A stretch of DNA of 64,000 nucleotides from a virus, in the IMG/VR virus record IMGVR_UViG_3300045988_132576, positions 62,908 to 126,907 of that record; one strand, written 5' to 3'. The translations under genes were made by a program, and so were the position numbers. Positions 43,693-44,652 of the stretch are shown here, piece by piece. Within the stretch, counting starts at the first letter, position 1; the number at the start of each line of letters is the position of its first letter. Under the pieces are notes generated by a model, which was not told the origin of the DNA, did not search any database, and saw only the letters and a list, made by a program, of their open reading frames with translations.

Positions 43693-44409
43693 TTATCTAA
43701 ATGGATTTTTCCATCGTCGATTAATTTCTTCATAACCTTTTTTAGGAAAGTATAAAATTTCACCATTTCTAAAAGTTAAATTGTCTTTATTCATTATTTT
43801 AATTTGATTTAAATTAATAATTAAACTTGGTGGGATAAAGACAAAATCTGGATGATAAACTAAAGTTCCTATATAATTTTCAAAAGAAGTTTTTAAAGTT
43901 TTACTATTTAGAACCTCATTTTCTAAATGACAACATAAATTTCGTTTTTGGATATCAGCATATAATACTTTATTTAAATCAATTTTTACTTCTCCGTTAG
44001 GAGTATCTAAATATTTATATTCACGTCTTTTTCCTTCTCTAACTTCATGTAAAATAGAAAAAATTTTTTCTTTATTAACAGGTTTTTTGACGAAATTAAA
44101 TGCCTTTACTTCATAAGAAGCTACTCCATAATTTATTTGGGAGGAAACAAAAATTATTTTTCCAATATACCCATTTGTTCTTAAAAGATGAGCTATTTCA
44201 ATGCCATCCATGTTTTTGAATGTAATTCCTAAAAAGATTGCATCATAATCAATATTAGAATCAATTAATTTTCCAGGATCAGTAAATTTATATATATATC
44301 CCGGCAAATTAAATTCTTTAAAATACTGATTTATTATTTCTTCCAATGAGTCATTTTGCTAATCGCTATTGTCGCAAATACCTACGATAAAAATTTTAAT
44401 CACCTTCAT
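43693..44409 (-). CDS. LytTR-family response-regulator-like transcription factor (238 aa, one in-frame TAG at codon 17)
   Basis: The track ORF (TTG-initiated) extends to ATG 44409 across one TAG. Receiver-like N-terminus and a LytTR DNA-binding C-terminus. The position where the phospho-acceptor Asp is expected reads FLGITF. Confidence 0.65.
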
Positions 44410-44652
44410 TTTGTTTATTTTAGAAAAAATTTTTCTATCTTTATATTCTTTCTATATTATAATTATACAAAAATTTTTAAATATTGTAAAATAAAAAATT
44501 ATAAAGTGTCAAATTTATTTAATTTTAAGTAAGTGAAATTTTTATCCAAAAAGTGTCAGTAATTATAATATATTTACACAAAATAAAAGTCATATAATAA
44601 TGAAAGGAAAAGATAAAACCTTTCATTATTATATTTCTCCGGAGGTAATAAC
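44410..44652. promoter_or_regulatory. divergent AT-rich control region with AGTGTCA direct repeats and a 14-bp inverted repeat
   Basis: AAAGTGTCA occurs twice about 43 nt apart. ATAATAATGAAAGG/CCTTTCATTATTAT is a perfect inverted repeat just before the RBS of gene 44653. Confidence 0.4.

What the first reader, a model, noticed from the sequence alone, without database searches (positions are those of the whole stretch)
43693..44652. Phage-encoded LytTR regulator with a degenerate receiver domain, plus a repeat-bearing divergent control region
The protein has a receiver-like N-terminus and a LytTR C-terminus. Where the phospho-acceptor Asp is expected the sequence reads FLGITF, which suggests a phosphorylation-independent or pseudo-receiver regulator. 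The 243-bp divergent region in front of it contains two AAAGTGTCA direct repeats and a 14-bp perfect inverted repeat abutting the RBS of gene 44653. LytTR proteins bind spaced direct repeats. This regulator is a good candidate for the switch that drives the adjacent cluster or the late genes.
Basis: partly seen in the sequence, partly recalled or inferred. Interest (0 to 1): 0.65.

Follow-up and report, generated by a model that had tools for sequence, protein, structure and literature searches.

The report
Phage LytTR regulator lacking phospho-acceptor Asp
A gut phage that reads the TAG stop codon as glutamine carries a ComE/AgrA-type gene regulator that has lost its phosphorylation site, and it probably switches on the six-gene operon next to it through a conserved DNA box; this is a useful annotation of a core phage module, not a new kind of system.

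Summary
Gene 43693-44409 (-) encodes a 238-aa receiver + LytTR protein. The AlphaFold2 model has pLDDT 91, and its best structural match is full-length ComE. Gly61 (in FLGITF) sits where the phospho-acceptor Asp belongs. The gene has an in-frame TAG at codon 17, because this phage reads TAG as Gln. Both AAAGTGTCA copies are real. The inverted repeat is 16 nt, not 14. Both features exceed chance.

The regulator is a core gene of a large clade of uncultured phages. Homologues at 28-68% identity always sit in the same place, divergent from the same six-gene operon. In 13 lineages a box AAAAAnGTGT(G/C)AGT lies exactly 33 nt upstream of a TATAAT that has no consensus -35. Window site A (44548-44560) is that box. 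A weaker half-site lies about 20 nt further upstream. The regulator's own promoter is near-consensus sigma-A type.

The second perfect repeat (44503-11) is lineage-specific and overlaps a -35 hexamer. The motif occurs nowhere else in the 64 kb, so control of the late genes in general is not supported.

Best reading: a kinase-independent LytTR activator of the adjacent operon. Binding and the transcription start are untested.

The parts
43693..44409 (-). Regulator gene: 238 codons plus TAA, read with TAG = Gln
   Evidence: phrog_8810 matches over the full length at 1.3e-25.
44359..44361 (-). In-frame TAG, codon 17, read as Gln
   Evidence: Window TAG codons align with CAA/CAG in orthologues.
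44020..44394 (-). Receiver (CheY-like) domain, residues about 6-130. D13, S89 and K109 are kept; the second acidic residue is N14; the acceptor is G61.
44227..44229 (-). Codon GGA = Gly61, at the position of the phospho-acceptor Asp
43702..44019 (-). LytTR-fold DNA-binding domain, residues about 131-236, with PPSLIINL where I recall canonical LytTR domains having an H-R/N-S motif
43647..43690 (.). Bidirectional intrinsic terminator between the holin gene (43238-43645) and the regulator
   Evidence: holin assignment
44462..44490 (-). P2, the regulator's own sigma-A-type promoter: TTTACA-17-TATAAT. An equivalent promoter is found in 12 of 13 lineages.
44483..44512 (-). P1, a second minus-strand promoter-like site: TTGACA-18-TACAAT. 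It occurs only in the window clade and L019, and its -35 is the reverse complement of repeat C.
44503..44511 (+). Site C: the distal perfect AAAGTGTCA copy, lineage-specific
44531..44539 (+). Site B: the degenerate half-site AAGTGAAAT, 20 bp upstream of site A (21 bp in L001). It corresponds to the TGAAAAATTA-like block of other lineages.
44548..44560 (+). Site A: the conserved box AAAAAGTGTCAGT, containing the proximal AAAGTGTCA. It ends exactly 33 nt before the TATAAT.
44593..44602 (+). Conserved TATAATAATG: the putative -10 of the divergent operon promoter, with no consensus -35 at 16-18 nt
   Evidence: Inference: the transcription start was not determined.
44592..44634 (+). Perfect 16-nt inverted repeat with an 11-nt loop (RNA fold -17.5 kcal/mol). 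Only the inner 5-11 bp stem is shared with other lineages.
44641..44655 (+). GGAGG Shine-Dalgarno sequence and ATG of the first operon gene
44653..47557 (+). Putative target operon of six genes: 44653-45099, 45112-45360, 45387-46241 (membrane, Cys-rich), 46263-46685 (BclA/ExsF-like TNF fold), 46699-47244, and 47237-47557 (HExxH metalloprotease-like)
   Evidence: Synteny.

Best explanation
The gene encodes a phage transcription factor with the ComE/AgrA architecture: a CheY-like receiver followed by a LytTR DNA-binding domain. In this lineage the receiver has Gly in place of the phospho-acceptor Asp, so it cannot be switched by a histidine kinase at the canonical acceptor site.

Proposed mechanism (inferred):
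1. Host RNA polymerase transcribes the regulator gene from a near-consensus sigma-A-type promoter (P2).
2. Translation needs read-through of one TAG codon.
3. Once the protein accumulates, it binds in tandem to site A (44548-60) and the weaker site B (44531-39). These lie about 50 and 70 bp upstream of the start of a promoter that has a TATAAT but no usable -35.
4. Binding recruits RNA polymerase to the divergent six-gene operon 44653-47557.
5. The extra perfect copy (site C) overlaps the regulator's own upstream promoter. In this lineage it probably adds autoregulation.

Shown here: the domain architecture, the missing Asp, the conservation and fixed spacing of the box, the promoter asymmetry and the synteny.

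Inferred: that this protein binds the box, that the effect is activation, and where transcription starts.
For: Architecture and missing Asp.

Synteny. The gene is a core gene with invariant synteny in relatives at 28-68% identity. It is convergent to a holin-like gene and divergent from the same operon.

The box. An ungapped comparison of 13 lineages anchored on TATAnTAATG shows three invariant columns, T-39, G-38 and A-35. G-34 and T-33 are each kept in 11 of 13. The box ends 33 nt before the TATAAT, while the flanking columns are randomised. A distal block has G-59 in 11 of 13, i.e. 21 bp upstream of G-38.

Promoter asymmetry. In 12 of 13 lineages the regulator's own promoter scores 10-11 of 12 with a 17-nt spacer, often with TGn. 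The divergent promoter has only a weak TTyAT-like -35.

Precedent.
- ComE boxes are two 9-bp direct repeats with a 12-bp linker (PMC4005675).
- AgrA sites lie immediately upstream of promoters with suboptimal geometry (PMC4227749).
- S. mutans ComE D60A still binds and activates its promoter when expressed constitutively (PMC12323615).

No histidine kinase was seen among the window ORFs scanned.
Against: - No binding or expression data exist.
- In most lineages the two half-sites resemble each other only weakly.
- The two perfect copies are 47 bp apart, not 21.
- L029 keeps the regulator and the TATAAC but has TTTGTTACC in place of the box.
- The LytTR domain scores below Pfam's threshold. It has PPS where, from memory, AgrA has the base-contacting H-N-S, so its DNA recognition may differ.
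- The stem of the inverted repeat starts only 3-4 nt after the TATAAT. That is hard to reconcile with a sigma-A start about 7 nt downstream, so the -10 assignment may be wrong.
- The window covers only part of the genome, so a kinase or further target sites could lie outside it.
Confidence: 0.55

Rival explanations
1. The protein is a repressor or autorepressor rather than an activator. Bound at site C it would occlude the -35 of P1. Bound at A and B it would limit divergent transcription until it is titrated or degraded.
For: Site C is the reverse complement of the P1 -35 hexamer TTGACA. The P1 -10 overlaps the P2 -35. AgrA is also reported to repress from a site downstream of a promoter (PMC4227749).
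Against: Site C and P1 exist only in the window clade and L019. The deeply conserved site A lies about 50 bp upstream of a promoter that lacks a -35, which is an activator position and not an occluding one.
Confidence: 0.15
2. The conserved box is read by something else, such as a host factor, an alternative sigma factor or another phage protein. The LytTR protein would then act elsewhere, for example on host promoters of agr, bacteriocin or competence type, or outside this window.
For: There is no direct link between protein and box. The half-sites are dissimilar. The -10 region yATATAryAATG could fit a non-sigma-A holoenzyme. Relatives of two of the operon genes (the 284-aa and 140-aa proteins) occur in Butyrivibrio virus Ceridwen, where no response regulator is annotated within the 10.4 kb shown.
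Against: Regulator, box and operon stay adjacent across every lineage examined, although the regulator has diverged to 28% identity. Read on the regulator's sense strand, the box is TGACACTTT, which has the CAnTT-type core that I recall for ComE and AgrA sites.
Confidence: 0.15
3. The repeats and the hairpin are ordinary promoter and leader elements with no regulatory link. One AAAGTGTCA is simply a -35 hexamer plus flank. The hairpin is a 5' mRNA stabiliser or leader structure. The Asp-less protein is a decaying or neutral gene.
For: Site C equals the -35 TTGACA. A short stem is present in 8 of 13 lineages with different sequences, as expected for an RNA structure. The acceptor residue toggles between Asp and Gly in two loci that are each 95% identical to the same protein, P0005, so it is not under strong constraint.
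Against: The protein is intact and confidently folded. It is conserved as a core gene in every lineage examined. Site A is conserved at single-base spacing where its neighbours are not. The G/C-containing 9-mer repeat is improbable by chance (0.35%).
Confidence: 0.1

Closest known systems
ComE of Streptococcus pneumoniae and S. mutans (REC + LytTR response regulator)
   Same: Same two-domain architecture, and the best structural match (4cbv, E 1.4e-13). It acts on tandem sites about 21 bp apart upstream of target promoters (PMC4005675). S. mutans ComE D60A still activates its promoter (PMC12323615).
   Different: About 17% identity. The acceptor Asp is replaced by Gly. No ComD-like kinase or peptide gene is seen. 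It is phage-encoded. The half-sites are weakly similar, and the perfect repeats are 47 bp apart.
AgrA of Staphylococcus aureus
   Same: The LytTR fold matches (4g4k target-normalised TM 0.80; 4xqj, the DNA complex, 0.79). It sits in a divergent intergenic control region, with sites just upstream of promoters of poor -35/-10 geometry (PMC4227749).
   Different: The NCBIfam AgrA model scores 28.6 bits against a cut-off of 400. There is no AgrBDC. The PPS motif stands where AgrA has H-N-S (from memory).
Pseudo-receiver / aspartate-less receiver regulators (e.g. RitR, ChxR)
   Same: Receiver fold lacking a catalytic residue, and presumably phosphorylation-independent. Pseudo-receivers make up several percent of receiver domains (PMC12632262, PMC4395418).
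   Different: The characterised examples named here are cellular; ChxR is described as OmpR/PhoB-type (PMC3960148). Neither review mentions LytTR or phage cases.
phrog_8810 and other phage-borne REC-LytTR proteins
   Same: Full-length match at 1.3e-25. 43 GenBank phage records encode relatives at 20-32% identity. A review notes LytTR proteins in Pseudomonas phages (PMC11945551).
   Different: All are unannotated or of unknown function. No target site or operon has been proposed for them.
Late-operon activators of Gram-positive phages (four families of phage-encoded activators of the late morphogenetic and lysis operons, PMC3753634)
   Same: A phage-encoded activator that switches on an operon.
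   Different: I assume the fold is unrelated; I did not compare it. Here the motif is found at only one promoter in 64 kb, and not upstream of the structural genes.

Membership tests
Two-component response regulator (CheY-like receiver, PF00072) | Alpha/beta receiver fold recognised by the family model | tested here: met
   35.4 bits against a cut-off of 30.2. The AF2 model shows a (beta-alpha)5 topology for residues 7-130. Receiver structures match at target-normalised TM 0.8-0.88.
Two-component response regulator (CheY-like receiver, PF00072) | Phospho-acceptor Asp at the end of beta3 | tested here: not met
   Gly61 aligns with the acceptor Asp of 2qv0 and 6m8o and with ComE position 58. The column is Asp in 122/139 and 114/120 homologues.
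Two-component response regulator (CheY-like receiver, PF00072) | The other active-site residues: the acidic pair after beta1, Thr/Ser at the end of beta4, and Lys at the end of beta5 | tested here: inconclusive
   D13 is kept, the second acidic residue is N14, and S89 and K109-P110 are kept. Across the phage family the first acidic position is Ser in 83/120 and the Thr/Ser position is Gly in 45/120.
Two-component response regulator (CheY-like receiver, PF00072) | A cognate histidine kinase | tested here: inconclusive
   None appeared among the window ORFs scanned. Not every ORF was scanned, and the window is only part of the genome.
LytTR DNA-binding domain (PF04397) | Match to the family model at the curated threshold | tested here: not met
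   19.2 bits against a cut-off of 22.6, E 0.0014. Only one of the 120 listed relatives (P0013) carries a precomputed LytTR hit.
LytTR DNA-binding domain (PF04397) | The beta-rich LytTR fold | tested here: met
   Against the AF2 model (pLDDT 91): AgrA 4g4k target-normalised TM 0.80, rmsd 2.4 A over 104 columns; 4xqj 0.79; B. cereus 3d6w 0.72; full-length ComE is the top hit.
LytTR DNA-binding domain (PF04397) | Binds imperfect 9-10 bp direct repeats spaced about 12 bp apart, upstream of target promoters | not testable with these tools
   Candidate sites A and B are 20-21 bp apart at a fixed distance from a TATAAT. Binding needs EMSA or footprinting.
Pseudo-receiver / aspartate-less receiver | Recognised as a receiver but lacking at least one of the five catalytic residues | tested here: met
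   The acceptor Asp is Gly and the second acidic residue is Asn. Definition taken from PMC12632262.
Agr/Com-type quorum-sensing cassette | Adjacent genes for a peptide precursor, a processing or export protein and an HPK10-type kinase | tested here: not met
   The neighbours are a holin-like gene and six genes of unknown function, none with kinase or ABC/AgrB hits.

The most novel reading that the evidence does not exclude
The REC-LytTR protein and its box may form a dedicated, kinase-free timer found across a large clade of TAG-recoded Clostridia phages. Host polymerase transcribes the regulator early. Both the regulator (TAG at codon 17, and at or near that position in several lineages) and its first target gene (7 TAGs in 148 codons) can be translated only after the phage has switched the genetic code. 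The operon, which encodes an exosporium-type BclA/ExsF-fold protein and Cys-rich proteins, would therefore need two keys: transcription activation and recoding. In relatives that keep the Asp, the same protein might additionally listen to a host kinase.
Probability: 0.15. Interest if true: 0.65.

Novelty: new variant of a known kind. Interest (0 to 1): 0.4.

Why it matters
It gives a first functional hypothesis, with a concrete DNA target, for a protein family (phrog_8810 and more than 270 metagenomic relatives) that carries no annotation although it is a core gene of abundant gut phages. It adds a phage-borne LytTR case to the pseudo-receiver problem; I found none in the two reviews checked. 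The natural Asp/Gly polymorphism could be used to ask what such receivers still do. It also defines a small, testable regulatory module (protein, box, promoter, operon) in TAG-recoded phages, where the timing of gene expression is an open question.

Tried and rejected
1. Regulon search. AAAGTGTCA with up to one mismatch, AGTGTCA, AAGTG, AARTGTSAGT and TATAATAATGRARRG were scanned over the window. No other intergenic occurrence of the box was found, so the late-gene-switch idea was dropped.

2. Collection scan. GTGTSAG-N33-TATAATAATG gave 26 hits in IMG/VR. Thirteen are the window clade next to the regulator. The other thirteen show no regulator homologue in the DNA held and look like chance matches. 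L052 has a tandem GTGTGAGTAAT pair, but too little flanking DNA is held to judge it.

3. Early-TAG gating.
- The TAG is at codon 17 in all close relatives and in L001 and L019. It is in the same aligned column in L029, shifted by 3 codons in L025 and by 10 in L027.
- It is absent in L028 and L030, and lies elsewhere in L031.
- The background retention of TAG codons is 5/28 (L001) and 15/31 (L019). The pattern is suggestive but not significant.

4. Rfam. Nothing at gathering threshold in the window, and only a chance-level hit in the intergenic region.

5. The hairpin as the LytTR site or as a terminator. Rejected: LytTR proteins use direct repeats, there is no U-tract, and the stem is AT-rich.

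6. The 18-codon uORF from ATG 44600, which ends in an ATGA overlap with the operon start. It is not conserved: the ATG is ACG in L060, and the length ranges from 3 to 18 codons.

7. Searches that failed or returned nothing. The search for related loci failed with the divergent alignment A1 and found nothing for P0008.

8. DNA similarity to GenBank phages gave only short weak hits, so the phage itself is not a described genus.

Full report
**Context**

The window is AT-rich (about 29% GC). It belongs to a phage that reads TAG as a sense codon.
- With only TAA and TGA as stops, long ORFs appear. One 2759-codon ORF carries 80 in-frame TAGs.
- Window TAG codons align with CAA or CAG in orthologues of two related lineages: 10 of 28 and 13 of 31. 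So TAG = Gln.
- TAG makes up 34% of Gln codons in the plus-strand block and 13% in the minus-strand replication block. It is absent from the capsid-like genes at 513-2554 and from the Pol III alpha gene.
- No tRNA gene lies in the window.
- Strong GGAGG ribosome-binding sites, a PHP-type Pol III alpha (recognised by eye, not scanned), NrdD/NrdG-type genes, a dUTPase and a Dda-like helicase point to a Firmicutes host. This resembles the TAG-recoded 'phAss' phages assigned to Clostridia (PMC10607447). DNA similarity to any GenBank phage is negligible.

**The observation**

The gene is 43693-44409 (-), 238 codons, with TAG at codon 17.
- Pfam finds a receiver above threshold and a LytTR domain just below it.
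- An AlphaFold2 model built on 73 relatives has pLDDT 91.2. It shows a (beta-alpha)5 receiver followed by a beta-rich domain.
- Foldseek returns full-length ComE as the top hit (E 1.4e-13), and the isolated LytTR domains of AgrA and a B. cereus protein at target-normalised TM 0.72-0.80.
- HMMER alignments to three solved LytTR-family receivers place G61 of FLGITF on the acceptor Asp.
- In two independent family alignments that column is Asp in 122/139 and 114/120 sequences.
- D13, S89 and K109 are retained. The second acidic residue is Asn.

In the 243-bp intergenic region:
- The two AAAGTGTCA copies and the inverted repeat are real.
- The repeat is longer than reported: 16 nt perfect.
- Both features exceed dinucleotide-shuffle expectation, at 0.35% and 0.1%.

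**Relatives**

The first search, which depends on a word index, found only close relatives. A full HMMER scan found 7424 hits, essentially the LytR/AlgR-type regulators. A profile search recovered more than 270 metagenome-only proteins of about 235 aa, with no source name and often no precomputed Pfam hit.

I fetched DNA for 13 lineages whose regulators are 28-100% identical to the window protein. In every locus that extends far enough:
- The gene is convergent with a holin-like gene of about 130 aa (phrog_13712 in the window).
- It is divergent from the same operon, with genes of roughly 130-150, 80, 245-290, 140, 180-210 and 106 aa.

So it is a core, positionally fixed gene of a large clade of uncultured phages.

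Most members keep the acceptor Asp. Gly occurs in the window clade, P0002, P0005/P0156, P0008 and P0159. L025 (Gly) and L026 (Asp) are each 95% identical to the same protein, P0005. Across the family the first acidic position is Ser in 83/120 and the Thr/Ser position is Gly in 45/120. The receiver active site therefore looks relaxed family-wide. The Gly of the window clade is one of several losses.

**The control region**

I anchored the 13 intergenic regions, without gaps, on a conserved TATAnTAATG (window 44593-44602). Two blocks stand out.
- A proximal box AAAAAnGTGT(G/C)AGT has T-39, G-38 and A-35 invariant, and G-34 and T-33 each kept in 11 of 13. It ends exactly 33 nt before the TATAAT.
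- A distal block, GAAAAATTA-like, has G-59 in 11 of 13.
- The columns in between are scrambled.

In the window these blocks are site A (44548-60, which contains the proximal AAAGTGTCA) and site B (AAGTGAAAT, 44531-39). They are 20 bp apart, or 21 bp in L001. Between the box and the TATAAT there is only a weak TTyAT-like element, with no consensus -35.

The regulator's own side is different. It carries a promoter scoring 10-11 of 12, with a 17-nt spacer and often TGn, lying 23-54 nt before the start codon in 12 of 13 lineages. This is P2 in the window.

This asymmetry is the classical layout of LytTR-activated promoters: a strong constitutive promoter for the regulator, and a -35-less promoter preceded by tandem sites for the operon.
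- ComE uses two 9-bp repeats with a 12-bp linker (PMC4005675).
- AgrA sites lie immediately upstream of promoters with poor geometry (PMC4227749).

Read on the regulator's sense strand, the box is TGACACTTT. From memory, this resembles the CAnTT-type core of ComE and AgrA sites.

- It exists only in the window clade and L019, and is degenerate in L001.
- It is the reverse complement of the -35 TTGACA of an extra minus-strand promoter, P1.
- I read it as a lineage-specific addition, possibly giving autoregulation.

**The inverted repeat**

Only its inner part is shared. A 5-11 bp stem starts 3-4 nt after the TATAAT in 8 of 13 lineages, with different sequences:
- GAAAGG/CCTTTC
- AAGGGAAT/ATTCC
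- GAAGAA/TTCTTC
- AAGAGAGG/CTCTCTT
- GAGAG/CTCTC

That fits an RNA structure. The other five lineages keep only the purine-rich tract.

The 16-nt perfect version extends into the TATAAT and is specific to the window clade. L023 has a compensatory A>T/T>A pair there. A sigma-A transcription start about 7 nt after the -10 would fall inside the left arm, so the geometry is unresolved (see 'Noticed in passing'). I do not think this is the LytTR site. A leader hairpin affecting mRNA stability or translation is the most economical reading, held with low confidence.

**Scope of control**

Neither the box nor the composite promoter recurs in any other intergenic region of the 64 kb. The only supported target is the adjacent operon.

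Its products are unknown in all libraries, with two exceptions.
- The last gene has HExxH metalloprotease-like hits.
- The 140-aa protein models as a TNF-like jelly roll (pLDDT 80). It is closest to the BclA C-terminal domain and to the ExsFA exosporium proteins (TM about 0.7).

That 140-aa protein is very abundant and conserved, with 4795 homologues. Together with its 284-aa membrane neighbour, it also occurs downstream of the endolysin of Butyrivibrio virus Ceridwen, where no response regulator is annotated in the 10.4 kb shown.

**Mechanism and rivals**

The best-supported reading is a kinase-independent LytTR activator of the divergent operon, whose level sets the switch. S. mutans ComE D60A still binds and activates when expressed constitutively (PMC12323615), so loss of the Asp need not abolish function.

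The rivals cannot be excluded without experiments. They are scored in the rival-explanations section:
- repression or autorepression;
- a different factor reading the box;
- unlinked promoter and leader elements.

**Novelty**

Phage-borne LytTR proteins have been noted (PMC11945551), and phrog_8810 already groups such proteins without a function. Pseudo-receivers are common (PMC12632262). What is new is the combination:
- an Asp-less REC-LytTR protein as a core phage gene;
- a defined candidate operator and promoter;
- a defined target operon in TAG-recoded phages.

I rate it a new variant of a known kind, of moderate interest.

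Noticed in passing
whole window; e.g. 9479-17758, 17874-21272, 44653-45099: TAG is used as a Gln codon throughout: 245 in-frame TAGs in the called genes. It is 34% of Gln codons in the plus-strand block and 13% in the minus-strand block. It is absent from the capsid-like genes 513-2554, the gene at 29959-31620 and the Pol III alpha gene 54619-58632. No suppressor tRNA gene lies in the window.
   Followed up: partly
window 44359-44361; L001, L019, L025, L027, L029: The regulator has an in-frame TAG very early (codon 17). 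It is in the same aligned column in the 29%-identical L029, and shifted by 3 and 10 codons in L025 and L027. It is absent in L028 and L030. This could make the regulator's translation depend on the code switch, but the enrichment is not significant with the lineages in hand.
   Followed up: partly
L025 vs L026, regulator codon aligned to window G61: Two IMG/VR loci, each 95% identical to the same protein (P0005), differ at the acceptor position: FLGILIK versus FLDILIR. Four of the six proteins of this lineage that were read have Asp. This is a natural Asp/Gly polymorphism.
   Followed up: partly
window 46263-46685 (+): The 140-aa operon protein models as a TNF/C1q-like jelly roll. It is closest to the BclA C-terminal domain, F-BclA and the ExsFA spore exosporium proteins (TM about 0.7). 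It has 4795 homologues, mostly 70-97% identical, which is far more conserved than the regulator.
   Followed up: yes
window 45387-46241 (+) and 46699-47244 (+): Neighbouring operon proteins. One is a 284-aa protein with one N-terminal hydrophobic segment, an Asn/Gln-rich middle, a CCC motif and a GCGCNS C-terminus. The other is a 181-aa protein with an acidic Tyr/Asp/Glu-rich tract (YDYDWEDYDYDEHEYE). No family gave either a function.
   Followed up: partly
window 47237-47557 (+): The last gene of the operon is a 106-aa HExxH protein with weak hits to DUF2268, Peptidase_M78 (IrrE/ImmA-like) and SprT-like families, and to phrog_1233.
   Followed up: no
window 9405-9423, 9785-9803, 17836-17854 (+): The motif GAAAAWTAWTAGAGTRATG occurs three times (0.9 expected). 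Two copies lie in intergenic regions just upstream of large structural genes. It may be a late-promoter element unrelated to the LytTR box.
   Followed up: partly
window 44600-44656 (+): An 18-codon uORF starts at the ATG inside the conserved TATAATAATG and ends with a TGA that overlaps the ATG of gene 44653 (ATGA). It is not conserved in other lineages: the ATG is ACG in L060, and lengths range from 3 to 18 codons.
   Followed up: yes
window 44619-44633 (-): Because the palindrome is perfect, a mirror copy of TATAATAATGAAAGG lies on the minus strand, pointing towards the regulator gene. Its significance is unknown.
   Followed up: no
window 44395-44409 (-): The annotated ATG of the regulator has no Shine-Dalgarno sequence. 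AAGGTGAT (codons 2-4) followed by ATT (codon 6) could be the real initiation region. L001 and L025 also appear to start at non-ATG codons, behind GGAAGG and AAAGGAGGAG.
   Followed up: no
L027 and L059, intergenic region upstream of the box: These lineages carry 2-3 tandem copies of a unit of about 32 nt (TTTGAAAAGTTGAATTAAAATTTCAGG) immediately upstream of the conserved box. Each copy contains a GAAAAGTTGA motif that resembles the box.
   Followed up: no
L052:108-186: A 124.8-kb IMG/VR contig has two AATTGTGTGAGTAATTA copies 23 bp apart, followed at 33 nt by TATAATAATG. This is the same architecture as here, but too little flanking DNA is held to see whether a regulator is adjacent.
   Followed up: partly
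window 62138-62977 (-): A 279-aa protein with a signal-anchor-like N-terminus and a Phage_lysozyme2 domain (8.4e-19) lies in the replication-side block, far from the holin at 43238-43645.
   Followed up: no
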